A stretch of 64,000 nucleotides of DNA from Phyllosticta citribraziliensis (taxonomy: Eukaryota): assembly GCF_038025025.1 (NCBI RefSeq), contig NW_027117338.1, positions 868,001 through 932,000 on the forward strand. The letters are read 5' to 3'. Position 1 is the stretch's first letter. Each line of letters opens with the position of its first letter. Shown here in pieces: positions 10,442 to 60,604 of the stretch. The translations under genes and the position numbers were made by a program. The notes beneath the pieces were generated by a model. That model searched no databases, was not told the DNA's origin, and was given only the letters and a program-made list of their open reading frames with translations.

Positions 10442-10636
10442 CACAGCGGTTGTCGAAGGAAATGAAACCTTCTGGCAACATGAGTGCGTCTGTGGAGCAT
10501 TCGTTTACTACTACGGCTATGGCTAAGGAGCATTCATTTACTACTACAGCTGTGCCCAACGAGCATCCATGCTTTGCTACAGTCACATTTAGGAAGCGGT
10601 CATTCAGTGACGCAGCTAGACCCAGGGAGTCTCATT
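10442..10636 (+). repeat. ~200-bp dispersed element, copy A: unique leader plus four 33-bp units with GGAGCATTC-like cores
   Basis: Colinear with the reverse complement of 45324-45522. Shares the leader TGTCGAA(G/A)GAAATG...ATGAGTGC and the end CTAGACC(C/T)AGGGAGTCTCATT. Cores start every 33 bp. Confidence 0.85.
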
Positions 10637-11357
10637 CCTCCTGACGCCCGCTGAGCCACTGCGGACGTGAAAGTCTGAGGGTGACTCCATGAGGCGGGGA
10701 AAGACACCTGCTTGGTTAAATCGGAATATGCAGGTCCACTGGCAGATGACGGGAGCGGGCTTTCAGCACATGTGCACAAGACGGGACTCAGCGACTGCTT
10801 CGAGATTTTCATTTTAGACTTGTTGTCCTCCTCAGCGTATCCTAGCAAGTTGCACAGGTCGTCGGACCAGGCTTGACTGACGTTGGCTGAACCCTCGAGT
10901 CTGACGCGCACAACACGTGCGCGCCAGACAGCAGGGACGAAATGAAAATATCTATTACACACATCTGTAGTGTTGTATTGAGGAAAAAAGAAGAAATTAG
11001 TGGGAAGAACAACCTGCCCATTACCTCCTAGCCATCTATCAGAGAGCAAGTCGCGTTGGGTGAAAGGTTGTTGTGAAGCGCGTGCTGAGAGAGATCTTGT
11101 AGTTTTGAAGCCTCCTTCTGCAGTGCTGGCAAATGGGAATTTGGAGAAGAAGAATGCCGTCATGTCATGTGGTCCCACGTGCAATGCGAGAAGCCAGAGT
11201 GTCTGCCACTATGCACACCCTGCACCGCCAGAGGTGACCGAGTCGTGAACGTGGCGGACACCGCACAGGAGCGCGGATTTGTCCAAACGGAGTCGCGACT
11301 CGGTAGAGCAACTATTCCACGCAATAGAGTGGATGGCGCCCAGTGGGCTGGGGACTC

Positions 11358-12904
11358 TTAAGCCTCCTTGACTGCATACTTCCTGCGGAACATGTCGTCG
11401 ATTTCGGTCAGGTAGTAGGTACCGGGGAACAGAGTGTCGACGGCGCCCTGAGGAGAGAAGCTCTTCTTCAGGTGGGCGTGCTCACGGAGAGCGCACATCT
11501 GTTTCGTAAATTAGCGCCAAGCCGAACAAAAGGAATACAATTTCCAAATACCTCGTCGTAAACCTGGGGAGGAACAACGCGACGCGAGTCCAGGCGCTTC
11601 TGAAGGTCAACGTTCTCGGCGAGCTCCTTGACGCTGCCCTTGACCTTGATCGACAGCATCGAGGCAGCGAGACCACTGCCGTAGGAGAAGATGCCAATGC
11701 GCTTGCCCTCGAGCTCCTCGGCAGCGACGTTGGAGATGAGAGAGATCAGACCACCCCAAACGCTACCGCAGTACATGTTACCACACATGGTAGGGACCTG
11801 GACGCTGGGCTGGACGCGAGAGGCGAAGCGCTTCTTGGTCTAATTGACAATTAGCATGCGCAAACGTGAGCGCGCAAAGCACGAAAACTTACCAGGGCCA
11901 TAAAAGTCTTCTCGACAGTCTTGTCGGAAATGGAAGCGGCGTAGTCAAGGTTGAGAAGCTCACGAGGAACCTCAGCAAAGATGGGGTTCTCAGGGTTCTT
12001 CAAGTAGTCGTTGTACAGCAGGCGGGCGTACGACTTGCTCACGAGCTTGCAAGTGGGAGCGTGGAAAGACATGTAGTCGAAGCGGTCGAGAGGAGTCTCC
12101 AGCGGGGCCTTGGCTTCGCCGTTGGTGTGGCCATTAGCCTGGGCCGCAAGCTTCTCCTCGCGGTCGTTGTAGGCCTTGTAGCAGCCGTCAACGGCCTCGG
12201 TGTAGCAGCGGATGGAGAAGTGGCCATCGACAACGGGGTACTCGCTGGTGAAGTCGGGCTTGTAAAAGTCGTAGGCGTGCTGCATGTAGGTGCCGCGCAG
12301 ACCAGGCTCAAAGGCCAGAGGCGCGTCGGGGCCAATCAGCATGGCGACACAACCAGCGCCACCCGTGGGGCGGGCGTTGCCCTTTTTGTAGAGGGCAATG
12401 TCGCCAGCGACGACAATGGCGTTGCGGCCATCCCAGGCCGACGACTCTACCCAGTTGATGGCGTTGAAAACGGCGTTGGTGCCGCCGTAGCAAGCATTGA
12501 CCGTGTCGACACCCTCGATGTTTGTGTTGCCAGAGTCCTGGAAGAGCTGCATGAGGACAGACTTGACCGACTTGGACTTGTCGAGCAGCGTCTCGGTGCC
12601 AACCTCGAGGCGACCAATGGACTTGGGGTCAAGCTTGTATTTTTTGAGCAGCGACGAGACGGTGGTCAGAGCAAGCGAGTAGATGTCTGGACAGGCGCGC
12701 GAGGTCAGATTTGGCGGTAGAGCGGTGCAGCGTGGGAGCAAACAAACCTTCTCTGTCGTCGCAGAAGCTCATTCTGGTTTGGCCGAGACCAATGGTGTAC
12801 TTCCCCTGGGCGACGCCATCGAACGTCTCCAGCTCAGCCTGGTCGACGCACTGGCTGGGGAAGTAGAGCTCGAGAGCCTTGATGCCGATGTTTTGAGGAG
12901 CCAT
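11358..12904 (-). CDS. ERG13: HMG-CoA synthase; 4 exons
   Basis: [24 protein letters not shown] (catalytic Cys), GNMYCGS, FSYGSG. Introns at 12687-12747, 11840-11892 and 11499-11551; stop TAA at 11358-11360. Confidence 0.97.
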
Positions 12905-19266: not shown

Positions 19267-20969
19267 GTTGAGCACTGCAAGATCCATTGTCCACACAGGC
19301 GTATGTTGATTGAATGCAATAGGGACTTTCCGTGTATCCTTACGAGGAATATGAACTACGTACCGTAAAGAAGCAGACTGTCCGACGGTTCTCGGGCGCA
19401 AAGAAAATGGAAAATATGGTTTCGAGAAAACATTCATGGATATTCGAAGGGAGATTCGATGATCATTGTGCGATTTGGGCGAGACTTGCGAGGGTCTTGA
19501 ATCGCCCAAACTGCATTGGAGACTGGTAACAATTGGTGATGTTGATGGAGGCGAAGCCACTCTGTAAGGGGTTCTGAAGTACTCGTTGTCTTTGCCTGGG
19601 GGTTTGCCCGAGGATTACTGTGCGTGTGTACTTCACCTCTATTTTTCAACAAATTCGTCTCTTGAAAGCAGCCTGAGGATGTTTGTGAGGCGTGAGAGTA
19701 CCACTCGGGTAATATGTTTGTTTACTTTGTACAGCTCAGCGCTGTCAGCGAAGAGCCCATGGCAGATGATCCTGGGCACTGAAATTCAAAATCAACCGGC
19801 CCGTCTGCAGGTCGGAACGAACCGCACATGGGCTCCATGACCAACGCAAGGTCGTCAAACTGTTAGCGCAGGCAGACAAAATATCCCCGGAAGCGTCATT
19901 CTGCTGCTCGAGTCTTCGGCGTCAGCAACTAGACAACGACTTGAATGGCAAATGGCCATTGTTTTCCATTTTATGTCGCCATCCGAGGGTGGAGCAGCGT
20001 CGGGCCGGTCCCCAAGCAACGCGACGGGGAAGCAGAGAAGTGGACCCTGTCAGCAGTCAGAAGGTGCGCCAACGCATGGGTCGAGATGAGGGAAGCTGGC
20101 AGCGAGGATTCGAACAGGCAGAATACGAAATATACAGGACGAAGCGAGAGCAGCAGGGCAATGAAAGGAAAGAAAATGGAAGCCGGCACGTTAGGCTGAG
20201 CCAGTGGCAGAAGGCGGCCGAAAGAGGAGGCCCAAGCCAAGAAGGCCAAGACCGAAGGCTCGGGCGAGGGAACCCACCTCTGAGAATGAAAGCGACGGGA
20301 CCGGACAGGAGGTGGCCTGGCCCGTACTGGCACGTGATGGCGACTCTCTGTTAAGGTGATTCTTCTGGCGAGTGGATGGGAGCTGGGAGGAATTGGCGCG
20401 TTGCAGTGAGCGGAGGGAGTGTCAGTCAAGGATGGTGGCAGACGGGAGGCGGGTTGGCGCGGGATGAGCTGAGAGTTTGTGAGGGGCGACAGGAAAGAAA
20501 GGGAAAAGAGCGCTTCATTGGCTCTGGGCAGGCTAAATTGAACAGCGCTGATCGCAAGAGCGCGATGTTCCTGCACCCGTGTCACAGTAATCCGTACCTC
20601 TGCCCTCTGGTCCCTCTCGAATCACGCCGAAAGCGTCGCAGACTGTGCATGACCTCTTCTGTGCCTGAAACGGCTTTGGTCTCTGCCCTCTTGCCAAACC
20701 TGGCCCGCTTCCCGAGCCAACCGGTCTTCGTCTTCACTGCACCTCGCTCCACTCGCCCACCATCACATCCGTCCGTCTCTCCACTCCGCCTCTCTACCAA
20801 CACACAACCACCACTCCTCCCGCCTCGCCTGCTCGCCCGCCCGCTCGCCTTGTACCTCCCGACTCGTCCTCCTCGCCCTCCTCACACTCCCGACGACTGT
20901 CGCGCCTGATCTACCCTCTCGCAACGGAGCCTGTACGCTCCGCCAAGGAGCCTCGACTCCCCGGTCGCA

Positions 20970-38075: not shown

Positions 38076-39812
38076 GCTCGAGGGTCGAGGTCAGGAGCAA
38101 GCGCCGAGCGCGAGTAAGACAGAGAGGAGGTAGGCTGGGCGGGAAGAGACGTCTTCCGAGAGCTTCGATCAGTCGAGCATCAACGCGAGGCACCGGGCGG
38201 CAGTCAGGAACGTATGGCACGAGGGCAGCGCTGTAGAAAGCTTGGTGGTAACGAGCGCCCGCCGGTGAGTTGAAGAAGTTTGAAGCGGTAAGGGCGGATA
38301 CGTGAATCAAAATAGTAGCGCAAGGTAGGTTGTGGATGTGGAGGAGGGCCCGGGGGCTGAGTTGCAGATGCCGCGGCCATCTATCTGCGGCGAGGCACAG
38401 GCAGCCCGTTTCCACAGCTTTAGGACGCCTGCTTATTACTTGCCGCTGCTGACTTTTTGCCCATCAACTGTGCGCGCGCCAATGGACGCTGTCACGTACC
38501 AAAAATGCGTTTACTTATTGCAGCCCTGCAAACCACCAGCCAGCCTGTTTGGCAGATGTTGCGTCTCGACCATTTCCAGAGCTGTCTGTTCGTCGCGCCA
38601 TCCTCGCCGATCAACCCCCACCGTGCATTGCGTACTCTCCTTGGCCTAGCCCTTGGCCTTGACCTGGAAGCTGTCCCAGTCCCACGGCACGTCCATCCTT
38701 CGAGCAGTCTCTCATCATCACGGTCGAAAGCTTCAATGCGTTCGTTCCCGCCTCTTCGCCTGCTGCTGCATCATCAATGTCCAGGCGCATGAGCATGGAA
38801 TCCCTTCATCTCCTGCTGCTATACCGCTGTCATTTCGAAAGGCTTTCTTGCCCCTGGTGCCGGACTCACTCTCGTCATCAGACCATCTGATATGCCGCCG
38901 CCTGCCCAGTAAGCTTGCAGGTCTCCTGTTTGCCTAGAGAGATTGATTGCCAGATAAGTTTTGAGCGATCGGCTGAGCCTTGGAAAGTATCTGAGAAGTG
39001 GCCTGCCATGTCTTTGCCTCCTTACCTAGTCCATGACGGACGGCGACACTGCCAACATTCTACGGCCAATGGCCTGCGTCCCATGCTTCCGGGTGTTCGT
39101 ACTTGCATGCGGAGGCAGCCAGAGACCAATCGGCCACTATCATCCATACGACAACGGACACGCGTACAGTCTTGTCTGCGCAGAGCGAACCAGCCACAGC
39201 GTTGGACTTTCTCCACCTAGTTGCCGTACAGAACTTAGATTCATGGGCACATGTGATACTCAGCGTTTGAAATCGCCACTCGAACACACCCGCAAGTCTT
39301 GAATGAATAATGGACATGGTTCGAAAGTGTGGAGCCTTGGGCAAAGGCTCTATAATGAGTCGGAAAAGCATCTTGGTGAACACTGAGTTTTCGCGGCAGC
39401 CGTATCATTGCGAAATTTCGATTACATTTAAACCGAAGGCGAACAGCCTGCGCAGTCGCCAACGACATGTGTCTATGTGCATTCATAAGTGCTCATATTT
39501 CATTGGTTTAACACTCAGAAGTCCGGAAAAGTCACAGATATGCCGAACAATCGTTGGCGCTAACTTGGAAACGTTCAATTCAAGGTGTCTGACGTGGGCA
39601 AAACGGGACGGTTCATAAGGCTGACATGCTCTGGAATAAATGAAGGGTTCTCGAGCCAGGGGAAATCGCATGGTGATGCTTGCTGACACTGTAGGCCAGG
39701 GGCAAGTTGTAACGGTGAACAAGCTTAAGAACCTGAACCTCTTGTGGCGCATCTTCCCAGGCTCGGTCGCAAGGGTCGTGGCACACACATCCCAAGGGTT
39801 TGTGAGTTGTGG

Positions 39813-40126
39813 CTTGGATGCTCTTTAGTCCTAGTCTCTTAGGGGCTTGAATGCTCCTTGACTGACCCCAACCATTGTTGTGTGGACGACTCTTCCGACG
39901 CAGCCCTGACGGTGATCAAGCGTGAGAAACGAAATCTCTTGTGGCGCACTCTGCGTGCGAGGCTGCTCACAAATGTCGTGGCACAATCCTGAGGTTCTGC
40001 GCATCAGCGCTCGAATGCTCTCCATCACAACTCTCTAATACTGCTGAATACTCCTGAACACGTACTCTGGTCTTGAGTCGCTTGAATGCTCCCTATCAGT
40101 GTCTGCTTAGGCGTATGGATGCTCCC
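39813..40126 (-). repeat. Cluster of six co-oriented GGGAGCATTCAAG-type motifs
   Basis: Plus-strand G(A/G)AT(G/A)CTC cores at 39816, 39849, 40013, 40046, 40084 and 40117, giving spacings of 33, 164, 33, 38 and 33. Confidence 0.7.
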
Positions 40127-41527: not shown

Positions 41528-42031
41528 TTGCATTTGTCGAAAGGAATGAGACCTGGCAATGCGAGTGCATCTAGGGGGCGTTCATTTGCTGCCATAGCTG
41601 CGCTCAGGGAGCAATTGTTCGTCCGCGCTGCCGGATCCAGAGAGTCTCTTTTATTCCGACGCGCAATGTGCCGGGAGGGTTGAAAAGTTGTGACCGGAGT
41701 CTGGGTTGAGAAAGTTTCGAGGGAAGGTTGACATGACTCGACGAATTTCCACGTACAAGGCTCTACTTTCGAATCAACCTTTTCAAACTGGTGCCAAATT
41801 CCACTTCATTCAAGTATCCCGCTGTGTATGTAGGGATGCGGCCACGACTTCGCCATAGCGCTCGGTGCATCGCACGCCGAGCAACTTGGCTAGACGAGAC
41901 GCGGTCTAAAACGCGTCCACCTCATTAGACCTAGCCAAAACCTAACGACACCCAAACATCGTTCGTACGAACCAACATTGCGCACCTCTCTGCCCACGAG
42001 TCGGGAGCATTCAAGTCCACTTTCGCCAACG

Positions 42032-42382: not shown

Positions 42383-42805
42383 GAGCATTGCGTCGAGCTT
42401 GAGGGCGCGAGGCTGAGAGGATGAGCCACCTTGGTGGACTGTCGCACACAACATCGCGAAGACATGGCGTTGAAATACGGTCTATGGGGCCGCTCTCTGT
42501 CCTACGGGTTGCACCCTTTTTGTGGCCTGGGCATCCTTTGGCCTTCGTTCAGGGAGCGTTCAGTCGCTGTCCACGTCAGACCAGGATTCTCCAATTTGTC
42601 CACCGCCATGCCATGTTGGCCAAGAGCTAGGTCGACATTTTTAGGGGCTTACCAAAGGATACGGGCTTGAGAATACGTCGGTACTACAACCTTGCGGATA
42701 CATTGTCCAATTCTGGGGCTGCGAATACAGTAACTAGATTCTGAATTGCCTTGCGTCTGCTCATCACACTAGCCATTCCCGCTTGGACGTGTAATGTTTC
42801 CGGGA

Positions 42806-42921
42806 TCGAATGCTCCCAGTGTCGGAACATGGTGATCCCACTCAGGAACCGGGGTCGAATGCTCCCAGGGGCGAAACAAAGTGATCCCACTCAAGAACTG
42901 GAGTTGAATGCTCCCAGTGTC
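42806..42921 (-). repeat. 49-bp tandem repeat (~2.3 units) carrying the GAATGCTCCC core
   Basis: T(C/T)GAATGCTCCCAG at 42806, 42855 and 42904. Units 1 and 2 also share GTGATCCCACTCA.GAAC. Confidence 0.8.
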
Positions 42922-43280
42922 GTGGCTGGCAATCCTTCACACGCGACCCGCATTTGGCTGCCCAGTGGAGAGTGACCAAAAATGACCGCGTCTGTGGTCA
43001 AAACACGTCTCATTTGACCATCATCAGAGGCAGCCGGTCACGGACTGAACACTATTCGCCAGCGGTGGGCGTCCACCAACCCACGTCAGCTGTCAGCTTC
43101 CCCGTGCCATGCCCTGTTGGCCTCATGGCCCGCTACTCATGGATTTTGTACATCTACTCGTGAACCACCTCTTTGCGATGTACCTTGTTCCATTGTAACT
43201 TTCGATCCACGACACCTCTCAGATTGCATTGTCCTCTCGTCAGAGGATTGGACATCAAGGTCTTGTTGAGCAACACCCCA

Positions 43281-45323: not shown

Positions 45324-45522
45324 AATGAGACTCCCTAGGTCTAGATGCAGCAGTGAACGGATGCTCCATAAGTGTAGCTATACTAGTAAATGAACACTCC
45401 TTAAGCGTGACTGCAGCAGTAGATGAATACTCCCTAAGTCTGACTACAATAGTGAACAAATGCTCCCTGAGTGCACTCATATTACCAGGAGGTCTGTCAC
45501 ATTTCTTTCGACACCCACTATG
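45324..45522 (-). repeat. ~200-bp dispersed element, copy B: leader plus four 33-bp units
   Basis: Reverse complement aligns end to end with 10442-10636. Units begin AGGGAGCATTTG, AGGGAGTATTCA, AAGGAGTGTTCA and ATGGAGCATCCG, exactly 33 bp apart. Confidence 0.85.
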
Positions 45523-45678
45523 TTACTCTATGTTCATCCGATGTATGCACCCCCTACCAAGCCAATACCCGCTCAGCTTTCCGGCTGTAGAATCTAGAGT
45601 CAGCCTCATCTCACCAGGGCAGTATCCCTGTCTTGGACACACCTTCATCAGCCTGGTCCCTATTCGTAATCGGCGTGG

Positions 45679-47802: not shown

Positions 47803-48281
47803 GTCGAAGAGGTGTTGACGAGGGCGGAGATCATGGCGAGGGTAAATACGGGTGTTTGGGAGAGGAACGCGCGGAACGCGTTGCGGCGTCAGCCACAGAG
47901 GGTACCGGCGGACGGCCAAGTCACCCCACGACAGGGAGGCAAGCGGAAGCCAGCACGGCGGGAGAGCAAGTCATCTTCCTCGCCGTCGTCGCGGAGCCGA
48001 ATTCTTCTCCAGACCCTGCTCCTATCCTACACTGCTCGTCAACCTCGACCACCGCAGCCCAGTCGCGTTGTTTTCCTTTTGTCGGTCACGTCGTCGCATC
48101 GTCATCACCGCATCGCGCCGCTCCGTTCCAACTTCGGGCCCGCCCAGCAACACCAAAACAACCAACCCCAAGCCTCCGCCCGCCACCCCCAAATACCGTC
48201 GAATATGTCCAATGTGCGCGTCGTTCCTCCTGGCATCCTGTAGACCGATTCACCTCTGCTCCACCATCCTCCTCCCGAACC

Positions 48282-50207
48282 ATGCCACTGCCTGACAGGT
48301 TCAACGCCGCCGGCAGCAATGGCAGGGCGCTTCGGCCGACCCTTGCGTCCTCCCGCACCTCTAAAACGCCCCTCACCCCGAAACTTGCCTCGACCCAAAG
48401 CACCCCGTCGCTGTCTGCGTCCTCGAACCGCTCCGCCTTGTCCTCGACGAGCTCCAATCCCCGCACCGCCGAAGAGTCCCTTAGCAACAATGTGACGCCC
48501 CGCTCGTCCGCGAGGCGGTCAAGAGCCGGCAGCAACCAGTCCACCCCCTCGGGCACCCCAGATACCCCTAGCGGCCCTCGTCTTGTCGACCCCCCAAGGA
48601 GCACTCCCACATTGGGCTATGGAAGCACTCCCTCCAGGCCCAGGTCTGTTGTGAGCAGCGCAGGCAAGTCTGAGAGTGCACCTAGGCTGGCCAATCCCTC
48701 TGCGAGGGTGCGCTCTCGTCCCAACAGCGAAATTGGCGTCAATGACAGGGACTCCAAGTTTTTCCACGCCAGCGCCGTCCGCTCCCAAGAGCCCACCAGC
48801 GCCCCGCCGCCCAAAAAGTCAACCACCTTTCTCCATTCGAGTGGGGAAAAGGGCAGAGATGACACGCGCCCCGCACACATGGCATCACCGCCGCTGTCGG
48901 CGCTAGGGATCGAAAGGAGCCGTCCAAACAGCGTGGTCGAAACCAAATTCTTTCACGCAAATACTATTCCTGATTCGAAGAACAGCTCACCCTTGACTTC
49001 ACCGCCTCCGCTATCGGCAACATCTCCACACTTTGGGCAACCGTCATCTCCTCTCAAGGACTCGGGACACTGGCCAAACGGCAGGGGAACTCCAAGACCA
49101 AACGCGGCCCGGCGCGCGCCTTCGGAGATTTCGACCTTTTCAAATTCTGATGTGAGCGCAAAACCAGGCAACCAGCGGAGATGGAGCGGTGAGCAGAATG
49201 GAGCTGCTGCTCGTCATGGAAAGAGCCCGAGTCTATCTTCGATCGACTCGGCGACCACAACAAGACGGTCGATATCCAGTACTTTGGAAGAAGCGTCTCC
49301 CAACGGCTTTCAACTCGACGTAATATCTCCCTCTACGATACATTCGGGTGGTGCTCCTGCACATGGACGAAGTGGAAGCGTCGTCGGCAAGGAGCAGCAT
49401 ACTGGCTTGCAATCACCCCTTTCACTTCCTCAGAGCCCCACATCAGCGACGGCGGCGGATTCTGACTCGGCGCAAAATCCACTGCAAAAGATGAATGAAT
49501 TGGCTGCAAATGCAAGAAGGGAAAGAAAGGTGCTGGATCTAGAAATCAGCAATTCGTCTCTCTTGGCCATCAATCGGCAGCTGGAACGCGAGGTTCGCAA
49601 ACAAAAGGCTGAGCTAAAGCGATTTCGACGACTAAGCAGAGCTGGTCGTATTCCCTCGGCTGGCACGAACAGATCTTCGATTCTTTCTTCCGTTAATGAA
49701 GGCGAAGCGAATGATGATGACGAATTGCTTGGCCTTGGGACCTCGGATGACGAGAGCGACGACGAGTTCAAGTCCAGCGGCTCCGGTGACGAGTTTTCTA
49801 GTGAATCGTCAACGGATGAAGGTGCTCTTACACCAGGGGCATTGGCAGAAAGGGATGCCAAGCATCTCCTCCAGGACCAAAAGCGTTTGCAATTGGACCT
49901 CTCCAAACATCGAGAGATCCTCGTCGACAGCCAAAAATTGAACCAGAGCCTTAAGCGCTGTCTGACAGCCACGGAGCTGATGATAAAAGAAGGAAAAAAG
50001 GCGCTGGATCATCGAATCCGCGTAAGCGACGTCCAACTAGGCGGGCGCGTATTGACCAAAGAAGATCAAAACGAGTCAGGTTCTGAATCGGAGGGCGAGG
50101 GAGTTTCGCGCGGAGGCTCACTTCTTCCAGCCTGGAATCGTGACAGCGCTGTGGAGCTCAACGGTCCCAAGCCTCCCCCCGATTACTTTACCGGTGCGCA
50201 CTACTAA
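48282..50207 (+). CDS. Conserved fungal Ser/Pro-rich coiled-coil protein, unknown function, intronless
   Basis: 641-codon ORF from ATG 48282 with repeated KFFHA and a coiled-coil ANARRERKVLDLEISNSSLLAINRQLERE. Divergent from Pol kappa. Confidence 0.85.
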   Translation: MPLPDRFNAAGSNGRALRPTLASSRTSKTPLTPKLASTQSTPSLSASSNRSALSSTSSNPRTAEESLSNNVTPRSSARRSRAGSNQSTPSGTPDTPSGPRLVDPPRSTPTLGYGSTPSRPRSVVSSAGKSESAPRLANPSARVRSRPNSEIGVNDRDSKFFHASAVRSQEPTSAPPPKKSTTFLHSSGEKGRDDTRPAHMASPPLSALGIERSRPNSVVETKFFHANTIPDSKNSSPLTSPPPLSATSPHFGQPSSPLKDSGHWPNGRGTPRPNAARRAPSEISTFSNSDVSAKPGNQRRWSGEQNGAAARHGKSPSLSSIDSATTTRRSISSTLEEASPNGFQLDVISPSTIHSGGAPAHGRSGSVVGKEQHTGLQSPLSLPQSPTSATAADSDSAQNPLQKMNELAANARRERKVLDLEISNSSLLAINRQLEREVRKQKAELKRFRRLSRAGRIPSAGTNRSSILSSVNEGEANDDDELLGLGTSDDESDDEFKSSGSGDEFSSESSTDEGALTPGALAERDAKHLLQDQKRLQLDLSKHREILVDSQKLNQSLKRCLTATELMIKEGKKALDHRIRVSDVQLGGRVLTKEDQNESGSESEGEGVSRGGSLLPAWNRDSAVELNGPKPPPDYFTGAHY

Positions 50208-50717
50208 ATTCCCTAATGTCTGAACAATCCCTTTGCGATGTCGACGTTTTGGACACGATCGTTTCATCTCTCATCTCTATCTCATTTCACATGTCAGTCT
50301 TTTTGGGTCTCCTTGGTCACTGGAGTGTCTTCATCCGAGACTGGAAGGCGTTTTACAGTCGTCGTGTGGTTTTCCATGTTTTAGCAAGCTCAGCGCCGTA
50401 TCTTTTTGTTTCCCTACCTTTAGTCTGTCTCCCCTTATTACGCATCCGGCTAGGGTGGGTGTCTGTCCTCCTTGTACTTCATCTAGAGATACCCCAGCTT
50501 TCAACTTGAGTCAAGCCGCCGCCTTCGTCTTTGATTTATACCACTTGTGATTTCTAGTCTACCATAGAATGGCCCCCCAAAATAGTCTAAGAAATTGTAT
50601 TACGCCTTCTGGGCTTGACCTCCACCCTTGTTTTGGTTGCAAAAGTCGTAGCGTTGAGGCTCAGGTTCTGCGAATTGGAGCTCAAATGTTCTTGAGAGCA
50701 CACTGGTCTGTAGTGGC

Positions 50718-50862
50718 TTGGATGCTCCCTATGGTTTTCGGTCGAAGCCTATGAATGCTCCCTATGGTTTTCAGCCGAACCTCATGAATGCTCCCTATAG
50801 TTATCAGTCGAAGCGTATGAATGCTCCCAATAGTTTCCAGTCGGTGCCCCATGACTAGTCCC
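50718..50862 (-). repeat. 33-bp tandem minisatellite (4 good units plus 1 degenerate) with the GAATGCTCCC core
   Basis: Approximate unit ATGAATGCTCCCTATGGTTTTCAGTCGAAGCCT. Cores at 50720, 50753, 50786 and 50819. Confidence 0.85.
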
Positions 50863-50894
50863 TCGACTTTTGCAACCAAGCCTCGACCCATGTC

Positions 50895-53215
50895 TTAAGA
50901 TTCTTGATCAGCCTTGATGAGATTAAGTAACCAGTCAGGGATAGAGGGCTTCTCGTTCCAATGCTCCTCATATATCTCCTTCCACTGTGGCACGCTCTGC
51001 TCAGGGATGGCAAACACCGCCGTGACAAACCACTGTTTCTTTCCGGCGCTGATCTTGTTCTTCAAAATCGGCAGCAAAGTCCGTGGGTCAACCAAATTAC
51101 TGTTCGCATCGGCCTCGAGCATACTCCCTTCTCTTCCAGTCTCAGCACCAAGCAAATCCACGATTCCCACGGCTCCAGATCTGGAGACGGACAAGACTGC
51201 CTCTCCTCGAATCTTGTACCCTTCACCAACCTCGTCGTCGAACGCTCCCAGCGTCCTGCCATCGCGCTCCCAGCAGCCGTGTACAGCAAATGCACCCTCT
51301 GCCGTTTCAATTGACCTTTTACTCTCGATGCGATGGCACCTCAAATGCCAGTACGGATTGCGCTCCGCAGGGGGGACCAACCACGTGTCCACCCTGACGT
51401 CGGACCAAGGCTTCATCGCGCTGACCAAGACGGGCAAGCCATCGCGCTCCTCAAAGCGCGCGTCGAGGACCTCGCGCCTCATTTTCCAAATCTCGCCGCC
51501 GTCGTCGCTCAGCGCGAGCGCAGACTCGGGGACAAACTGCTCGAGCGTGTACGAGCCCGTCGACACGCTGTACGCGAATGCGGCGCTGTATGCAAACTTG
51601 CCGTACTTGGCCTGCGTGTTCTTGAGCGGGTAATGGCAGCTCTGGCCGCTGCAGAGCAAAAAGTGATGACCGCCCCTACAACTCACAATCTGCAGGGGGA
51701 CCTCGAGCTTGCGTATGGGCGGGAGAAGGCCCAGTTCGGCGGGATGTGGCTCCTCGGGAGCATTCCAGAACGGGTGCGAGTCGGGCAGGGCCAGCACCGC
51801 GAAAACAAGCATGCACCAGTACGGGGAGCCGGGCGAGTTGTAGTTCTCGGCCAAGTACGTGTTGGGATACGTGTAGCCGATGTTGAGCACACCGTTTGGC
51901 TGGAAGATGTGCTCCTGGCGCGTCCACCAGCGCAGGTTCCGCAGCAGTATTCCCTTGACCACGCCCCAGGTCAGCGGCGCGGGAAGCTCCACGTCCGCGA
52001 ACGCCACCGCTGACCAAAACGCTGCCATGGCGAATCTGTACGTCAGGCTGCGCCCAAACGTGATTCCTGCGCCGCTGCTGTCAAAGTAGTATGCAAAGTC
52101 TACTGCATACGCGCGAGAGCGGTTCTTGAATTCTTCCGCCCGCGCAGGATCTGTTGACTCGGTCAGCTTGGCGTACAGCAGCTGCAAGTACTGGATGGCG
52201 TATGATCCGCTGTAGTAGTCCATTTGCGTGTAGCCAGCCGGGCCGTCGTTGGACCATCCGGAGCCTCGGTAGAAAGTGTTGAGTTGGACCAGGTCACGCT
52301 CGATTTGCGAAGACGAGTATTCAGCGCCATTTTGGGCGAGGCCAAGGTTGGCAAAGACGCGGAACCAGAGCCTGGACACGTAGGGAGAAGTGTTAGTGGG
52401 CGGGATCGGGTGAAAGGAGGTCAGTGAAGAGGATTCTGGAAACGAGTGGTCCCGTGGAGGGACATGCGGAGCATTCAAGCTCAAGTGCTCCCGTAGAGGG
52501 CTCTGGGAGCATTCAAGTGTGAAAACGATTGGTGGAAAAATTTGGGGTCATCTCGAATTCTCGAATCCATCTCGAATCCGCTCGTGGCGTGGGGGTCACT
52601 TGCTCTCAGGGGTTCAGGGGGCGTAAGATCGAACAACTTTGAAACCGACAACACACTTCTCAAGAAACCCACTGAAATTTTGAGACATGCAAAAGCAACA
52701 TACCAGTTTGTATTCGGCATATCCTTTTCGTTCATACTCCCCAAGTACGCCTCGACGTTCTTCTTCTGCCTCTCGTCCAACCTCTTCCAAAAGTAATCCC
52801 CCGCAATCGCCAGCGCGAACCCAATCGGACAAGCCTCGACCATGCGCTGGTCTTTGTCCTCCATGTAGCCCCAGAACTCGTCGCTCTCTGGGTCAGTCGC
52901 ATTGATCAACCCCTTGATCCAAAGCTCCGCCCCCTCCCACCAAAAGCCCCCTGCCAGTAGCGGCGCCAGCCCCCACAGGGGGCGAGCGTAGCCTTCGCCT
53001 TGCGCGGCAGTTTCGTCGAATCGCGTGCCGCTGGCGCCCACGCGGATCAGAGCGCCGCCCGGCGAGGCGCCCGCGCGCAGTGGATCCAACAACGCGATGC
53101 ATGCGGCCGCAAGGTCATCACGAGTCGCGATGGGATTCAGCGAGAAGGCGTGCGGCGGATGCGAGCGGTTGCGCGACGCTGTGGCGGCCGAGGCGCTGGG
53201 GGCATGACTAGACAT
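50895..53215 (-). CDS. DUF2264 family protein (GH154 beta-glucuronidase-like), no signal peptide; 2 exons
   Basis: [28 protein letters not shown] (332-nt intron 52372-52703), [40 protein letters not shown]. Confidence 0.85.
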
Positions 53216-54546
53216 GGTTTCCTTCGGACTTGGCGGTGGACGTCGGTTGCGAGCAATGTGGATGCCTTGATACTCATGCGGTTGGCTTGGGAGGCTCCGA
53301 CTGTCGTATCTCCTGTTTATCTTTGCTGATTTCGGTCGATGAGCTTTTGAAATAGCTGTGCCTCCGCGGTTTTGCGGATGTTTGGCGTTCTCGGTGACTG
53401 ATGACGATGTGCGAATTGACCGTTTGCGATGGTGTTCCAAAAGGGGTAATGGCGAACGGTGCGGTCCGTTAAGTGAAACCAACAGCAATTCAATCAATCG
53501 CTATCTCTTTCGTGCCAAGGAATCCGTAGCCCTGCAGTGGCGCCAACAGGCTGGCTGTGGCACAACTTTTGAGGTTGATTGGATAATTTAGTTCCTTGAG
53601 GCTGATCTTCTTTCGTGATGCTGGCGGAAACTTGACCTGGCTGTCCGTGAGACCAAGCCGTCCTGTTTTCCTCTTGGTATGTCTTACATACGTCCTCCAG
53701 TCGCACTTTAACCTCTTCTATCCTCGGTGTCCTTTTAACCGACCCCGGCTAAATGGCGCGTGGCGTGAGAGGGTCGGCACCATGTCGGTTCACTCCAAGG
53801 GTTCGGAGGTGGTGAGAAAGATGGGGAGACCCACTGTCTACTCCGCATCATGTGGCATCCTTGTCGACTCTAAAGCTGGGGTATGTGGCGGCGGGGAACC
53901 TGAACTTTTCCATTCCAGGATGTGATCTGCAACGTCAACTCGTGGTCAAATATCCATCTTCGCTTCGGCTTGGCCAGCAGCTGCCCAAACTCTCTGTAGA
54001 ACAAATCTACGCTTGGAAGGTTAGTTTGTGACCAGATTTGAATGAACCGCGGCCCGGATTCTGTGCGAGCAACGCACCTCAGCGGAGATGCACAATTCAG
54101 CCCTCAAGTTCAGCTCAAAGAAACGTCGAGGCCTCGACCGTTGCCATGATATCCAACCGCCTTGGCTCTCCAGCCATCGAAAACGGAGCACAAAGCGCCG
54201 CCTTTGTTTGCTGTCGGTCGGAAAATTCGACCGCGTCTTGGGATCTGATCTTATTCGTGCTGATATACCCGCCTGGTTTTCCCACTACTCAGAGTAATTG
54301 TCCGTCGCCCTGCCGCTCATTTAGGGCCTAGGCCGACTGCCTTGGCTGACTCGCCATCTGTCACGACAGGGCTTGCTGGTGCATAGATAGATGGACTTTG
54401 TCCGCGACGACAACGCTTCGACTTCGTCACTCAATCTTCAGCCTTGACTACTTTTGCCCGGTGCTAGCTGTGGCTGTTCTTCTGGTCGCCCTTCGTTCTT
54501 CCCCAACTGGTCGCGCACGTGGGCTCGCCCGCCCCTTCCTCCCACA

Positions 54547-56701
54547 ATGACCAATTTCCTCAAGCTCGTGGTCAAAAATCAGGCGATCCATGAAGACCCA
54601 ACGCAAATATACGGATGGCGGGTTTTCATGCTGGCATGCAGCGCATGCTTCGGAGGCATGCTGTTCGGCATGGACATTGGAATTATTTCAGGTACTCTAC
54701 GGCATTAGAAAAAGGCTCGAGCTAATAGATTTTACAGGGAGGAGTCCTGACGCTACCGGCATTCAAGAAAATGTACAGCCTCGATGGTCGAAGTGCCACC
54801 TCTCTTGCGAATCTTGAGGCCAACATAGTCTCCACACTCCAAGCCGGTAAGTTGGGACTTACTGCACTCCTGGAATTTGAAAGCTTATTAGGCCCAGGCT
54901 GTTTTGCAGCGTGCTTCGTAGCCTCCTGGATCGCGGACAAATGGGGACGGAGGATCGGCCTATTGCTCAGCGCCATTGTCGCAATTGTCGGTTGTGTAAT
55001 GCAAGCCGCGGGTGAAGGGCATCTTCCGGTCATGTACATTGGCAGGTATGGTTGCGCTTTAAAATCTTGCCGCCAAGCAACGCAATCAGAAACTGTACTG
55101 ACCGGTAAAATAGATTTGTGGCGGGTGTCGGAGTAGGTGCAGCCAGCATGATCACTCCTTTGTATGTCAGTGAAAATGCGCGTAAGTCTTTCGTCATAAT
55201 GCATCTCCCGTGGTCTCCGTTGGTAGGACTGATGAGATTTCAGCGCGTGCGATTCGTGGAGGCCTGACAGGACTTTACCAACTCTTTATTGTAACCGGCA
55301 CCATGTTGGCCTTCTGGACGAACTATGGTTCTTTGCTGCATCTGTCGGGCAAATCCACATTTAGTGAGTCAAGTTCAGCTCGTGGAATCGCCTATGGGAC
55401 TCGACTGACTCTTTCCTAGTTGTCCCCTTGATAGTCCAAGCTCTTCCAGCGATACTTCTTCTTGTCAGCATGTACCTTTGCAACGAGTCCCCACGCTGGC
55501 TAGCAAAACAAGACCGCAACGAGGAGGCGCTGAGAATTCTCACTCGTGTCCGCCAGTTGCCAGAGGAGCATCCATATATCCAGGCCGAGTTGACTGAGAT
55601 CAAAGAACAGCTTGATCACGAGCGCGAGCTAATTGCGGGCTCATCGTACAAGGACCTGTTGAGAGAAATGTGGCTCATCCCCGGCAACCGGAAAGTGAGT
55701 TCAAAAACAACCACTTGCCTGTTTTTCCCCCTCTTTCTCTCATGACAGAGCTAATCTAGTGATGTTAGCGTGCTCTCATAAGTGTTGGTCTGATGGTTGC
55801 GCAACAAATGACTGGAACTAACGCGTGAGTTTGGCTCACGAACTCATACTGAAAGGGGAAACCTGTAGGTGATGAACTGACTTTGGCAGAATCAACTACT
55901 TCGCACCTCAAATCTTCAAATCCCTCGGCATAGGCAAAACAGAGAGTGGCCTTTTTGCAACCGGCATCTATGGTGTGGTCAAAATGGTGGCGTGCGCCTG
56001 CTTCCTGCTCTTCGTCGCCGATTCTCTTGGAAGACGCCGCTCGCTGCTGTGGACCAGCATCGCACAAGGGCTAAGTATGTACTACATAGCCATATACATA
56101 CGCGTGTCGCCGCCGGTCGAGGGAGACCCTGTTCCACCAGCTGGCTACGTTGCCATCGTCGCGGTCTTCTTGTTCGCTTCCTTCTTTCAGTTTGGTTGGG
56201 GCCCGGTCCCGTGGATCTACACGAGCGAGATTCCGTCAGCACGCTTGCGGTCGATGAATGTTGCGCTCGCAGCCGGGACTCAGTGGCTGTTCAACTTTGT
56301 TGTTGCAAGGGCGACACCAAACATGATTGCGACTGTCGGAAAGTCTGGATACGGGTCAGTTGGTTCATGCCTGCAATTTGTGAGTTCGAGACTGACGTTT
56401 CTTTAGAACCTACTTCATCTACGGCTCATTCTGCTTCAGCATGTTTGTGTTTGTTTGGTTCTTTATTCCCGAAACCAAAGGTAGGGGATTAAAGCTTCCA
56501 GAAAGTGGAGGCAGTGCTGATGACGTTCCAGGACTTTCTCTCGAGCGCATGGACGAACTCTTCGGTGTGACTGAGCTGCACAGAGATATGGAGACGGGAC
56601 AACGCAGCAGTGTGTCAACGCCACGTGTGGTGGATGAGAAGCATGGAATCGAACAGGTGGAGGTCGCTCCCCAACCAGAGCCGCTGGACAAGAGAGGCTG
56701 A
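54547..56701 (+). CDS. MFS sugar porter, quinate/galacturonate (GatA/GAT-1-like) clade; 10 exons
   Basis: [92 protein letters not shown]. Nine introns with donors near 54692, 54847, 55046, 55182, 55364, 55696, 55825, 56355 and 56481. Confidence 0.88.
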
Positions 56702-58334
56702 AAGGTCGCCTGCAGAATCATCAACGTCGGGATCGTCAGAGGGAAGGGTATCATGGACGTCGCCTTAGTTCAAACTATTCCTTTCTCTTTTCCCACCGCC
56801 CCAATACGACCGCCCTGTCCGGATACCCCAGGCGTTGGCACTGCCGTCATGGCAGTGTCCCATATCTTCCCACGCCCGAGTTCATAAAGACTACGTCTGG
56901 GCTCAATCTCAATTTTGACCGGTTTGGCGAGCGAGACGTCGTGTGAGATGGCGCTGTCTTTGCAAACTCGAGTTGGATTGGCCCAGATGTTTCCGAGAGT
57001 CGATACGCTTCCAGAAGGACCACCTGGACGACATGGACCAATTGCCTTTGACTTTGCTTTACATGATGTCTGTCGCATCGAGAAATGCTCAGTCATTGAT
57101 TCTGAGCCGCCGAGCCGGCAAACTTGCGAAGTCCATCGAACGCTCCCACCGGAAAGACGCCACGACTTGATCGCATAGGTCCAGCATCACGACGACCACT
57201 ATTGCTCATCACTGCTTGATTTTCATGCCGCGAGTTTCTTTCCTGAGCCTTTTTTTGCCCTTCATCAGCAACTCCTGTTCGGGCTTGTCTGCATTGCGCT
57301 TCGAAACATTTTGACACCGCCCAAGAATACCCACTCAGCGAATACTTCTCGACTTTCTGCTGTAGACTTGGCCGTATAGATCATTCTTTCCCGTGGAAAC
57401 TTGTCGTTGCTGGCACCATCTCGTTTTCTTGCATTGTTCCCACGCTCTTGATTTGGAGCCTTTTCTCAGACAGATCCGTCTTGATTTTGGAGCTACTGCG
57501 TCATTCGTCAACTCCGCATCCAGTCAGCAAACTCTGCGGTAGTTGGTGTGACTACATAGCTGCCGTGCGTTGAAGAATACTGCGGTGTTGATTACTCAAA
57601 GCAAGCGTCGGCGTATTTCCAGTGAGACGGAGGGATGAATTAGTCTAGCGTTAGAGCATCCAGGGCGACGGGGTCGGAATAAAGTTGGTGGATTCGCAAG
57701 CGATTGGCGACGAGGGGAGAGCGCACAGGGCAGCCCCTGGACCCTGGCTGGCCATGACCGACGGGAACATCACACGCACCCAGCTAGCCAACTCGTCACT
57801 AGTAGCAAAAACGCATCAATCGATCCCTTGCTCCCGCCCGCCCGTCTCCGCCAGCTAGTCAACGGCCGTCCTTCTCCAAAAAAGCACATGTCCAACCGCG
57901 TCCAGTTCTGGCCGCCAATCCGCCAATGCTCTCGTCCTACTCGATACCCTAGTCCGGCCTGGCAGGCCCAGCCGGCATACCGCAGGCTCCGTGCTACCCG
58001 CCGCCCTCTTTCGTGGCCAGCGTCAAGGATACCAGCGGAGGGGGTGGGAAGAGACGTCCACCAGCCGTGGGCTCCCTCGTCCCCGGTCCACCTCTAAGCC
58101 ACGGACGGACGCGCCAGCTATGTGTGTCTTGGACCTTCGCGTCCGCCCACCCAGGCCCATTCCCACGGACTTAGGGCTTTGGTACGTTACGGTGGAGGCA
58201 GCTCCGGACGTTTATAACGCGCACTTTGACAGGCTATGGGTCATTCTGGCCATATACTCTATCAAGACAGCCATTGCCCCTTTTCTTCTACTCTGACAGC
58301 TTCATTCCTCTGATCGCATGCATACACATCGACG

Positions 58335-59635
58335 ATGCCCATTATGCCGCCCATCAAGGTGCTCCTCGACTTCGTCTACACGCAGCTCTTCGTCAAGCCG
58401 CCCAAGCCGACGCAATCCTTTGCCGGCCGCACCGTCATCGTGACGGGCGCCAACGTTGGCCTAGGCCTCGAGACCGCCCGGTACGCTGCGCGGTTGGGCG
58501 CGGCCAAAGTCATCATCACGTCGCGGCGCGTCGACGCCGGCGAGCGGGCCAAGCAGGACATTTACAAGTCGGAGAAGCTATCGGATCCCACCCTCGTCGA
58601 GGTGTGGCAGCTGGACCTCTGCGTGAGTGGCACCGTCCGTGGCTTGTTGGCGAAAGTCGTGGCACACAACAAGAGCAGGGAATCAGTCTCGTCCTTAGGG
58701 AGCATTCAAGTCACTCTACACTAGAGAATGTGCTCAAGAGCATTCATGAGTCTAAGAGAAGAGCAAAAGGGAGCATTCAAGCGTCCATGAGCGGCAGTGC
58801 GTGGGAGGCTGTGTGTGCCATGAGTTTTCCTACCGAGCCCCGCTCCTCCCTCGATGAAGTCATCTAATTCTCGTAGGATTATGAAAACGTCCAAGCCTTT
58901 GCGGCGCGCGCAGAGCAGCTCCCCCGCCTCGACGCACTCGTGTGCAATGCCGGCGTCGCTACATCGCACTTCAAACTAGCTCAAGGCCACGAAACAACCA
59001 TCACGACCAACGTCATCTCGACGTTCCTGCTCGCGCTGCTGCTGCTGCCCAAGCTGCGCGCGACGGCGCGCGAGACGGGCACGCTGACGCACCTCGAAAT
59101 CGTTTCGTCGCTCGTCCACTTCTTCACCGACTTCCCCGAGCGCGATGCCCGCCCCGGCCAGCTGTTTTCCGACCTGTCCGACGAGAAGAAAGCCCGCATG
59201 GACGACCGCTACAACGTCTCCAAGCTCCTCGAGGTCTTTGCCGTGCGCCAGCTCGCCGCCGACCCTGAGCTCATGGGCGCTCGGAGTGACACCTCGCCAT
59301 ATCCCGTCGTTGTGACGGCCGTCAACCCCGGGTTTTGTGACTCGGCGCTGCGACGCGAGTTCTACGAGGGCTCGAAGATCACAAAATACGCCCTCAAAGC
59401 ATTTGAGCTGGTCATGGCACGGTCGAGTGAAGAGGGCGCTAGAAATCTTGTTCTGGCGGTGGCGCCAAGCAAAGCGGACCAGACGTGGCACGGGCAGTAC
59501 ATCAGCGAAGGCAAAGTGAAGCCCCCATCCAAATTCGTGCTGTCCGAAGCAGGCCTGAAGCAGCAAAAGAGGGTATGGGAGGAGATGGCAGTGATTTTGG
59601 ACAAGATCCAACCGGGAGTAACAAAGAACTTTTGA
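58335..59635 (+). CDS. Short-chain dehydrogenase/reductase (retinol dehydrogenase-like); 2 exons
   Basis: TGANVGLG, WQLDLC|DYENV (254-nt intron 58623-58876), CNAG, VSS, YNVSK, VNPG. Confidence 0.9.
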
Positions 59636-59982
59636 ATGCTTCTCAGGGGTGTCATGTCTGCGGAGGCTAACGACTGATGAAGAACACGGTCCTTTGTTTA
59701 AATCCTAAATCCGCTCTGCTCATAGGTTGGTATGATTAGGCAGATGGAGAATTCAAATTGAATTGTTGCACTGCCGACCTATCCATTGACAGGAACAGAC
59801 CGCAATATGGAAACCTCTCAGACCCAAAACATGCAAGCCTCCAGTGAAAGCACGACGGCCTTCACCCTTATTGTCATCATTCGCAATCGTTACTTCCTTT
59901 GGTTTTGTGTATAGTGCGCGTCTTTGGCCAGCGATGATGCCGTGTGCGCCGCAACGCCATGTGTTCGGGTGTGTATGCCAAC

Positions 59983-60604
59983 TCATGCCGACACGGGCTT
60001 CTCGTCCGCCGTCAGAATGCCCTTCTCGACCAGGTCCTCGGGCTTGGGGCGGCTCTTGAGGGCATTCTCGAGCTTGTCGGCACGCATGTTGTGCTCGAGC
60101 TCCAGCTGATGGGCCTGGAGCGCGGGAGCGGCGGTGGAGTCGGGAAGGATGTGGCCTAACAGAGTGAGTCGCGACATGCAACGTGGAGGACAGAGGGATG
60201 AGGAAGTTCAGGGGTTAGCGCATGGAGAAGAACCTACGCTGAACCAGCGTCTCGCGGTCGGGGCGATGCGCAATGCCCTTCTTCAAGTTGTCGGCAATCT
60301 GCTGGCGCTCGAGCTCGAGCTGCTTCTGCTGGAGAGCGCTGTCGGACGAGGTACGCGACCCCGGATCAGCACGAGTAGCGAGGATGCGGGTGACGGACAA
60401 GGAGCATTCAGGGGCCGAGGCTGCAGCAGGCAAAGGAACTCACGGAGCAGCGTTGGTGTCGAGCAGAATGTGGCGGTTCTTCAAGTCCTGCGCGTCGGGG
60501 CGCTTTTGCAGGTGCTTCTCGAGCGAGTTGCGGCGCTCAGGGCCAGCAGCAACGGGCGAGATGGACGCGGTGTCGACGATGGGGGTTTCGGATTCGGTCG
60601 CCAT
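59983..60604 (-). CDS. Small fungal RPEL-repeat protein (three repeats); 3 exons
   Basis: LEKHLQKRPDAQDLKNRHIL, LKKGIAHRPDRETLVQRHIL and LENALKSRPKPEDLVEKGIL. Introns at 60339-60443 and about 60156-60237. Confidence 0.88.

What the first reader, a model, noticed from the sequence alone, without database searches (positions are those of the whole stretch)
10442..60412. Window-wide non-coding motif family GGGAGCATTCAAG in co-oriented clusters
Seen: the exact 13-mer occurs five times (40081-40093 rev, 42003-42015, 52505-52517, 58698-58710, 58769-58781), and the 12-mer twice more (39846 rev, 52468). About 20 further near-copies lie at 10494-10636, 39813-40126, 42806-42915, 45324-45468, 50718-50829, 58738 and 60401. 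For a given 13-mer at equal base frequencies about 0.002 hits are expected in 64 kb on both strands, although the motif was chosen after seeing it. Almost all copies are non-coding, and copies within a cluster point the same way. Clusters sit in convergent, divergent and tandem gaps and in introns in either orientation to the transcript. Inference: this is a DNA-level signal rather than a promoter or RNA element. Candidates are an array for a lineage-specific DNA-binding protein, a chromatin/replication/segregation mark, or the seed of a self-amplifying minisatellite element. I do not recognise it as a described fungal element.
Basis: partly seen in the sequence, partly recalled or inferred. 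Interest (0 to 1): 0.8.

Follow-up and report, generated by a model that had tools for sequence, protein, structure and literature searches.

The report
Two fungal MITEs share one motif
In a Phyllosticta fungus the repeated word is the preserved core of a 33-base repeat carried by two different families of miniature jumping elements and by stand-alone arrays, which suggests an unidentified protein binds it.

Summary
The motif is real. The true core is GGAGCATTC(A/G): 834 exact 10-mers genome-wide against 56-186 expected, in a 31-Mb Phyllosticta genome. Most window clusters lie inside two MITE families with different ends. Family A has 5'-CGAGGC ends and a probable 3-bp TSD; family B has 5'-CACAGTG ends and a 4-bp TSD in 20 of 34 copies (Chapaev/CMCT-like). 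Both carry co-oriented 33-bp units. One window copy has an apparently empty site in a related organism. Of 100 cores censused, 61 match A or B and 39 have a recognisable TIR. The core is as conserved as the TIRs (7-10% against 24-27% in spacers). It also persists in TIR-less arrays whose spacers are near random, so decay is not uniform. Best reading: a protein-binding site spread by MITEs and sometimes kept by the host. No transposase was found (searches inconclusive) and binding is not shown. A genus-specific KilA-N-fold/zinc-finger family sits beside core arrays, which is a lead only. This scan noted the MITE reading, probably some arrays, and a KilA-N cluster earlier, elsewhere in this genome. 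Added here: two families, TSDs, census, differential conservation.

The parts
10442..10655 (+). Family B MITE, 214 bp, both TIRs, 4-bp TSD (ccac/ccac), 33-bp units with cores at 10494, 10527, 10560; lies between the SNF2 and HMG-CoA synthase ORFs
   Evidence: (181.9 bits); ORFs
39757..39908 (-). Decayed family A MITE, cores at 39815 and 39848; one clear TIR (39757), the other degenerate
   Evidence: 51.9 bits
39958..40137 (-). Second decayed family A copy next to the first, four cores spaced 33, 38, 33; one TIR left; upstream of the alpha/beta-hydrolase gene
   Evidence: 36.6 and 31.0 bits
41535..41670 (+).
   Evidence: (74.6 bits)
42003..42015 (+). Solitary exact core 17 nt upstream of the in-frame ATG (42032) of the DUF952 ORF, inside a probable transcript contig; no element recognised
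   Evidence: (5.6 bits)
42800..42922 (-). TIR-less 49-bp tandem array with three cores; spacers unrelated to A or B; no second copy found in the genome
45305..45522 (-). Family B MITE, 218 bp, both TIRs, four core units; TSD matches at 2 of 4 bases; between the convergent P450 and IMS-family polymerase ORFs
   Evidence: (181.3 bits)
50630..50885 (-). Family A MITE with four cores at 33-bp period; left TIR clear, right decayed; the unaligned gap in organism C is 328 nt longer (about ten units)
   Evidence: (54.4 bits)
52468..52517 (+). Two exact cores 38 bp apart inside a 332-nt intron (52371-52702) of the minus-strand DUF2264 gene; weak A similarity only
   Evidence: 12.5 bits; X2 record 9 joins across the intron
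58638..58842 (+). Family A MITE, 205 bp, both TIRs, flanks gtc/ctc, cores at 58699, 58737, 58770, inside a spliced GT-AG intron (58623-58876) of the short-chain dehydrogenase gene; apparently empty site in organism C
   Evidence: (139.1 bits)
60401..60410 (+). Solitary exact core in an inferred intron (about 60339-60442) of a minus-strand RPEL-repeat gene
   Evidence: the intron is inferred from GT/AG signals and frame, not from RNA

Best explanation
Shown: the core is the invariant head of a 33-bp (also 34- and 38-bp) minisatellite unit carried head-to-tail, 1-5 times, inside two non-autonomous DNA-transposon (MITE) families with different TIRs and TSD lengths. Their insertion spread co-oriented clusters into introns, UTRs and gaps regardless of gene orientation. 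Shown: the core is held as tightly as the TIRs across copies, and it also survives in TIR-less arrays with near-random spacers and other periods (34, 43-55, 49, 70-94, 120-157 bp). Inferred: it is the site of a sequence-specific DNA-binding protein. Binding helped active elements (a subterminal/internal site of the TnpA type, or a borrowed host factor), so two families kept it. Most inserted copies now decay neutrally. A minority of loci keep or expand the sites under host selection. The binder is unknown; a Phyllosticta-specific KilA-N-fold plus zinc-finger family is the best candidate found (about 20%).
For: TIR words 59 and 44 exact, controls 1 and 0. TSD: B 4 bp in 20 of 34 against 0.52 shuffled; A 3 bp in 6 of 24 against 1.18, 0 of 1000 shuffles. 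Two B copies on different contigs differ by 2%. Apparently empty site of the 58638 copy in organism C, and many different flanks at the B end in organisms A, B and C. Census: 61 of 100 cores in A/B profile hits of 20 bits or more, reversed-sequence maximum 5.9. A TIR lies within 300 bp of 39 of those 61, 1 of the other 39 and 1 of 192 background windows. In copies chosen by TIR only, core/TIR/spacer divergence is 6.8/6.8/23.6% for B (18 copies) and 9.9/10.1/27.2% for A (12 copies). TIR-less arrays: core column agreement 0.93 and 0.98, flanks 0.45 and 0.53, random 0.40 and 0.48 (L192, L202). Precedents: MITEs amplifying TF motifs (PMC5950925, passages); TnpA binding subterminal repeats (PMC2613891, passages).
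Against: No transposase found (PF02992, PF18758, PF18759: 0 hits, controls did not ring over the cut-off), so the mobilising enzyme and any element-encoded binder are unidentified. No binding data. Private (singleton) changes fall about equally on core and spacer in B (2.6 against 1.9%, p 0.18) and A (4.5 against 5.7%, p 0.43), so host selection on ordinary inserted copies is not shown. 39 of 100 cores are unassigned, more than the 7-22 that chance would supply. A and B spacers are weakly alike (0.32 against 0.25, p 0.03), so shared ancestry may explain part of the sharing. Sites in the divergence tests are not independent, so those p-values are overstated. The profiles were built partly from censused copies. 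The A TSD was picked from 20 shift/length combinations. In CACTA elements the sites flank both ends in both orientations (recalled); here they run one way.
Confidence: 0.65

Rival explanations
1. Pure relic model: one ancestral minisatellite was captured by two MITE families (through nesting or template switching); the core served only the transposase, and all present copies, TIR-less arrays included, are neutral remains with no host role.
For: Same 33-bp period in A (16 of 28 spacings) and B (38 of 47) and weak spacer likeness. A B copy nested in an A copy at C1:1449840. Equal singleton rates.
Against: Arrays L192 and L202 have cores about 90-96% intact with spacers at shuffle level and no recognised TIR; neutral decay should erode cores and TIRs alike. 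Arrays with other periods and unrelated spacers carry the same core.
Confidence: 0.2
2. Host-first model: the core is the site of an ordinary, widely conserved fungal transcription or chromatin factor, and the MITEs only hitch-hike on it, as with E2F sites in Brassica MITEs.
For: Solitary cores in a 5' leader (42003) and in introns (52468, 60401). TIR-less arrays near unrelated genes. Precedent in PMC5950925 (passages). The core contains CATTC, close to the TEA/ATTS site CATTCY (recalled).
Against: The base after CATTC is A 77% or G 17%, not a pyrimidine, and GGAG upstream is equally fixed, unlike the recalled TEA site. No match to a known factor was tested with a tool. The neighbouring genes share no obvious function.
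Confidence: 0.1
3. Mutational model: the core is a hot spot for local duplication or conversion (as minisatellite cores are, recalled), so arrays arise and are repaired around it without selection on binding.
For: Arrays of many periods. Three window arrays differ in length in organism C by +32, +56 and +328 nt, near multiples of their unit.
Against: Duplication copies spacers with cores; it cannot leave cores intact and spacers random without core-limited conversion, for which there is no evidence. The organism C lengths come from gaps between aligned pieces and could hold other insertions.
Confidence: 0.05

Closest known systems
MITEs that amplify transcription-factor motifs (E2F sites in different Brassica MITE families; bZIP60, PIF3, TCP15/23 motifs; PMC5950925 passages; Henaff 2014 seen only as cited there)
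   Same: Short non-autonomous TIR elements; one motif shared by different families and spread near genes.
   Different: Fungal; motif of no identified factor; binding not shown; the same core is also kept in TIR-less arrays with randomised spacers.
Chapaev / CMCT-clade DNA transposons (PMC4079192 and PMC12730594, passages)
   Same: Family B has CAC..GTG ends and a 4-bp TSD, the stated Chapaev hallmarks; CMCT members have CA..TG ends and 2-5-bp TSDs.
   Different: No transposase found, so the lineage is not established; the fungal CMCT lineages described in the passages read (EnSpm, ESTA, Plavaka) have 2-3-bp TSDs and come from basidiomycetes.
CACTA/Spm subterminal repeats bound by TnpA (PMC2613891, passages)
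   Same: A short motif repeated inside the TIRs with variable spacers, conserved like the TIRs.
   Different: One-way array filling the element; shared by two families with different ends; no TnpA gene found.
MITE-borne tandem repeats (Xstir/Xmix, miDNA4, Pearl; PMC9659126, passages)
   Same: Variable number of internal tandem units; arrays persist without the TIRs.
   Different: Those arrays are described as homogenising; here the spacers diverge while a 10-bp core stays.
MITEs of Zymoseptoria tritici (PMC4522978, passages)
   Same: Short elements in gene-rich DNA of a dothideomycete, most without a clear RIP bias.
   Different: TSDs there are 2, 5-6 or 8-9 bp; no shared internal core in the passages read.

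Membership tests
MITE | Short, non-coding, bounded by TIRs | tested here: met
   A 135-247 bp, B 119-227 bp in most copies; TIR profiles
MITE | Target-site duplication | tested here: met
   B 4 bp, 20 of 34 against 0.52; A 3 bp, 6 of 24 against 1.18, weaker
MITE | Dispersed multi-copy family with empty sites | tested here: met
   59 and 44 exact TIR words on many contigs; one apparently empty site in organism C
MITE | Mobilised by an autonomous partner with the same ends | tested here: inconclusive
   Three Pfam searches empty without working controls; the 4.9-kb TIR pair on C6 was two separate MITEs
Chapaev / CMCT (family B) | 5'-CAC..GTG-3' termini | tested here: met
   feature from PMC4079192
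Chapaev / CMCT (family B) | 3-4-bp TSD | tested here: met
   4 bp
Chapaev / CMCT (family B) | DDE transposase of the clade | tested here: inconclusive
   No element-linked ORF; PF02992 and PF18759 empty, RAG1 profile not searched
Transib / RAG signal (family B starts with the heptamer CACAGTG, recalled) | 5-bp TSD (recalled) | tested here: not met
   0 of 34
PIF/Harbinger (family A) | 3-bp TSD | tested here: met
   mostly G-W-C rather than the recalled TWA; feature from PMC12730594
PIF/Harbinger (family A) | DDE_Tnp_4 transposase plus Myb/SANT protein | not tested
TF-motif-amplifying MITEs (E2F type) | Motif shared by different MITE families and enriched in them | tested here: met
   61 of 100 cores in A/B hits
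TF-motif-amplifying MITEs (E2F type) | Motif bound in vivo by a host factor | not testable with these tools
   Needs ChIP, DAP-seq or EMSA
TEA/ATTS site (CATTCY, recalled) | Pyrimidine after CATTC | tested here: not met
   A 0.77, G 0.17, C+T 0.06 in 404 array sites
KilA-N/APSES domain (candidate binder on C2) | KilA-N fold | tested here: met
   Model pLDDT 75.6; Mbp1 Z 11.5, rmsd 2.8, 91 aligned, top four rows all Mbp1/Bqt4; Foldseek probability 0.99 but E 0.055; no Pfam KilA-N hit
KilA-N/APSES domain (candidate binder on C2) | Binds this core | not testable with these tools
   Only genomic adjacency
Centromere or segregation mark | One locus per chromosome or CenH3 association | tested here: not met
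   Scattered along contigs among genes; CenH3 not testable

The most novel reading that the evidence does not exclude
A genus-specific KilA-N-fold/BED-like zinc-finger protein family (possibly the domesticated DNA-binding gene of the lost autonomous element) recognises GGAGCATTC(A/G). Two MITE families with different ends used that recognition to move and seeded about 800 sites. The host now keeps arrays of 5-13 sites with free spacers in introns and convergent gaps as insulator-like or autoregulatory platforms. This would be a fungal protein-site system built from transposon parts and caught mid-domestication.
Probability: 0.15. Interest if true: 0.78.

Novelty: new variant of a known kind. 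Interest (0 to 1): 0.45.

Why it matters
MITEs are ordinary. What is unusual is one 10-bp core kept by two families with different ends and by TIR-less arrays whose spacers are random. It gives a small, tractable case of how a new binding-site vocabulary spreads through a fungal genome and is then retained, with a concrete probe and a candidate protein to test. Family B also shows Chapaev-like hallmarks (CAC ends, 4-bp TSD) in an ascomycete, which I did not find described in the papers searched. The variable-length arrays could serve as species markers in Phyllosticta.

Tried and rejected
Autonomous partner: the C6 TIR pair 4.9 kb apart was two MITEs. PF02992, PF18758 and PF18759 gave nothing, and their controls did not ring over the cut-off. 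Pfam on 105 of 168 long ORFs near arrays and on 30 of 89 ORFs in the two KilA-N regions found no transposase. Harbinger, hAT and RAG1 profiles were not searched. Metagenome scans with both TIR patterns found 0. RNA-structure role: the 58623-58876 intron folds no better than shuffles (z -0.16), although the TIR stem forms. De novo TIR search around 16 arrays or sites found no convincing arms or TSD. The 49-bp array has no second copy by BLAST. Transib (no 5-bp TSD), TEA site (wrong base) and centromeric mark were rejected as above. The first structure model (pLDDT 50) gave no useful match; a sequence search of PDB gave only a zinc finger at E 0.59. Partial paralogues of the candidate binder on C4, C6 and C12 have no core array. 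No RNA holder was listed as such. Print searches: the motif strings occur in 485 papers, and the 15 listed titles are unrelated to fungal repeats (listing only). Searches listed no paper on these elements. The library lacks most subscription journals; Repbase and Dfam could not be searched; no supplements were read.
Full report
OBSERVATION. The 13-mer with up to two mismatches occurs 19 times against 2.35 in shuffles, 0 of 100 reaching 19, and sub-words of it are the commonest 8- and 9-mers of the window. The window lies in a 31.35-Mb, 22-contig genome with ascomycete genes. A protein from this genome is identical over the aligned part to a record named Phyllosticta citribraziliensis. Genome-wide the 13-mer occurs 82 times (control 0) and the 10-mer GGAGCATTCA 834 times (control 25). 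Markov models of order 0-5, trained on about 212 kb, predict 1-4 and 56-186. A profile of 404 array sites shows information in about ten positions, GGAGCATTC(A/G). The window has 13 exact 10-mers against about 1.7 at the genome mean.

TWO MITE FAMILIES. Flanks of the first 30 of the 82 exact 13-mer loci showed a short element with about 33-bp terminal inverted repeats starting CGAGGC or CAAGGC (family A). A 13-letter TIR word occurs 59 times (control 1). At the best boundary 6 of 24 paired copies have an exact 3-bp direct duplication, against 1.18 in shuffled pairings (0 of 1000 reach 6); this was one of 20 shift/length combinations tried. A census of the first 100 listed 10-mers (contig C1, 0.10-3.26 of 3.42 Mb) revealed family B, with TIRs starting CACAGTG. 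Its 17-letter TIR word occurs 44 times (control 0). An exact 4-bp duplication flanks 14 of 21 TIR-selected paired copies (21 of 30 loci had a partner end) and 20 of 34 overall, against 0.52 shuffled, maximum 3 (one of the 34 is a spurious pairing left in). CAC..GTG ends with a 3-4-bp TSD are the stated Chapaev hallmarks (PMC4079192, passages), and CA..TG ends with 2-5-bp TSDs mark the CMCT clade (PMC12730594, passages). Both families carry co-oriented units headed by the core, mostly 33 bp apart. Two B copies on different contigs differ by 2%, so movement was fairly recent; most copies differ by 13-28% from their nearest neighbour.

THE WINDOW. B copies lie at 10442-10655, 45305-45522 and (relic) 41535-41670; A copies at 39757-39908, 39958-40137, 50630-50885 and 58638-58842. 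Of 13 exact cores, 8 are in A or B, 1 in the 49-bp array and 4 outside any recognised element. Contigs of four public runs were laid on 39200-59100 (its tables are truncated). The 58638 copy sits in a spliced GT-AG intron. In organism C a contig joins 58634 to 58865 with 25 other letters, which reads as an empty site. Many contigs in organisms A, B and C end at the B terminus with different flanks, so the family is present in relatives. In one organism C contig the gaps over the 41535, 42800 and 50630 arrays are 32, 56 and 328 nt longer than in the window, near multiples of the unit. I read this as shared loci of variable unit number, but the letters were not seen.

HOW MUCH IS TRANSPOSON. Profiles assign 37 of 100 cores to B and 24 to A at 20 bits or more (reversed-sequence maximum 5.9); 39 are unassigned. 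A TIR lies within 300 bp for 39 of the 61 assigned, 1 of the 39 others and 1 of 192 background windows. Chance would supply 7-22 of the 100, so a real remainder lies outside A and B. The profiles were partly built from censused copies.

THE CORE DOES NOT DECAY LIKE ITS FLANKS. In copies chosen by TIR alone, non-CpG divergence from consensus is core 28/414 (6.8%), TIR 6.8% and spacer 469/1990 (23.6%) for B, and 9.9, 10.1 and 27.2% for A. The contrast holds in independent nearest pairs. But private changes are about equal in core and spacer (B 2.6 against 1.9%; A 4.5 against 5.7%). For private transversions B is equal (1.8 against 1.7%) and A lower in the core (1.7 against 4.0%). This fits selection on active elements followed by mostly neutral decay. 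A spaced-pair search (45 matches, 30 fetched) found arrays without recognised TIRs. L192 has 13 cores with column agreement 0.93 and flanks 0.45 (random 0.40). L202 has 7 cores, 0.98 against 0.53 (random 0.48). In four more arrays the flanks are above random (0.62-0.77), and one of these, L197, is B-like. Leaving out the two exact cores used for selection, the rest differ at 11 of 110 and 2 of 50 positions. Tandem duplication alone would not leave cores intact and spacers random, so at these loci something preserves the core. A and B spacers are weakly alike (p 0.03) and one B copy is nested in an A copy, so common origin of the unit is not excluded.

WHAT COULD BIND IT. No transposase was found (controls uninformative). 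One array on C2 lies between two tandem reading frames for a KilA-N-like domain followed by a zinc finger. The predicted structure matches Mbp1 (Z 11.5, rmsd 2.8, 91 residues; Foldseek probability 0.99, E 0.055). The Atlas gave KilA-N at 0.75, a lead only. Credible homologues were found only in Phyllosticta (four of the seven rows look like chance). A third paralogue on C15 has an internal stop, a BED-finger hit just over the cut-off and B-like three-unit arrays on both sides (53.7 and 32.6 bits). The C2 locus was found through the motif, so C15 is the only independent case: 1 of 1 full-length and 0 of 3 partial paralogues. The background holds about 3 element loci per 120 kb, and orphan-gene regions may collect elements anyway. 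This is a lead, not evidence of binding.

MECHANISM. Shown: two MITE families, TSDs, dispersal, internal arrays, differential conservation. Inferred: the core is a protein-binding site that helped active elements, as TnpA sites do in Spm (PMC2613891, passages) or as host TF motifs ride in plant MITEs (PMC5950925, passages), and a few loci are now kept by the host. Confidence 0.65. Rivals: neutral relic 0.2, conserved host factor first 0.1, mutational hot spot 0.05.

COMPARISON AND NOVELTY. MITEs with internal tandem repeats are known (PMC9659126, passages), as are MITEs in a dothideomycete (PMC4522978, passages) and CMC/EnSpm elements in fungi (PMC5751038, passages). Both families are members of the MITE class. 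B works like a Chapaev/CMCT derivative, but membership is open without a transposase. Ten paper searches were allowed and nine used; none listed a description of these elements, within a library lacking most subscription journals, Repbase and Dfam. This scan noted pieces before in the same genome: the MITE reading of this core, an intronic hairpin, and conserved-core arrays, one of which matches L192 in size and copy number. Those notes came after my two-family reading was formed and are not independent support. Verdict: real, largely explained by MITEs, with an unexplained preserved core. New variant of a known kind; interest 0.45.

Noticed in passing
G000:C2:152000-162500 (L217, L218): Region of orphan ORFs and several unrelated tandem repeats (17-bp, 60-bp, 157-bp) around two tandem KilA-N-fold/zinc-finger frames and the start of a third, degenerate one.
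   Followed up: partly
G000:C15:480000-491000 (L230, L231): Second orphan-rich region: broken KilA-N/BED-like gene bracketed by direct B-like arrays, more B-like relics, and an ORF with an LDTEF stretch that recalls DEDD exonucleases (no Pfam hit).
   Followed up: partly
P0004 (Phyllosticta capitalensis homologue): A repeated EERSC peptide upstream of the KilA-N-like domain could be encoded by a one-mismatch variant of the core; DNA not seen.
   Followed up: no
L018 / G000:C2:2647700-2649000: About 11 cores at 60-94-bp spacing in a compound repeat of about 156 bp, plus one inverted partial copy, between convergent AAA-ATPase and helicase ORFs.
   Followed up: partly
L111 / G000:C1:1449620-1450010: A family B copy nested inside a family A copy.
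   Followed up: partly
window 39738-39751 and 39936-39949: The two adjacent A copies are each preceded by the same 13-bp flank, suggesting an old tandem duplication of element plus flank.
   Followed up: no
window 52468-52492: The first core is followed by a near-inverted copy, forming an imperfect palindrome, within an unusually long 332-nt intron.
   Followed up: no
family A insertion sites: Flanks show a loose target preference, G-W-C at the duplication and A about five bases outside the end.
   Followed up: partly
L193 / G000:C8:2053700-2054150: Eleven-core array between two histidine-phosphatase exon hits, probably in an intron.
   Followed up: partly
window 47598-50207 and 20910-22445: Long ORFs (869 and 511 aa) with no Pfam match.
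   Followed up: no
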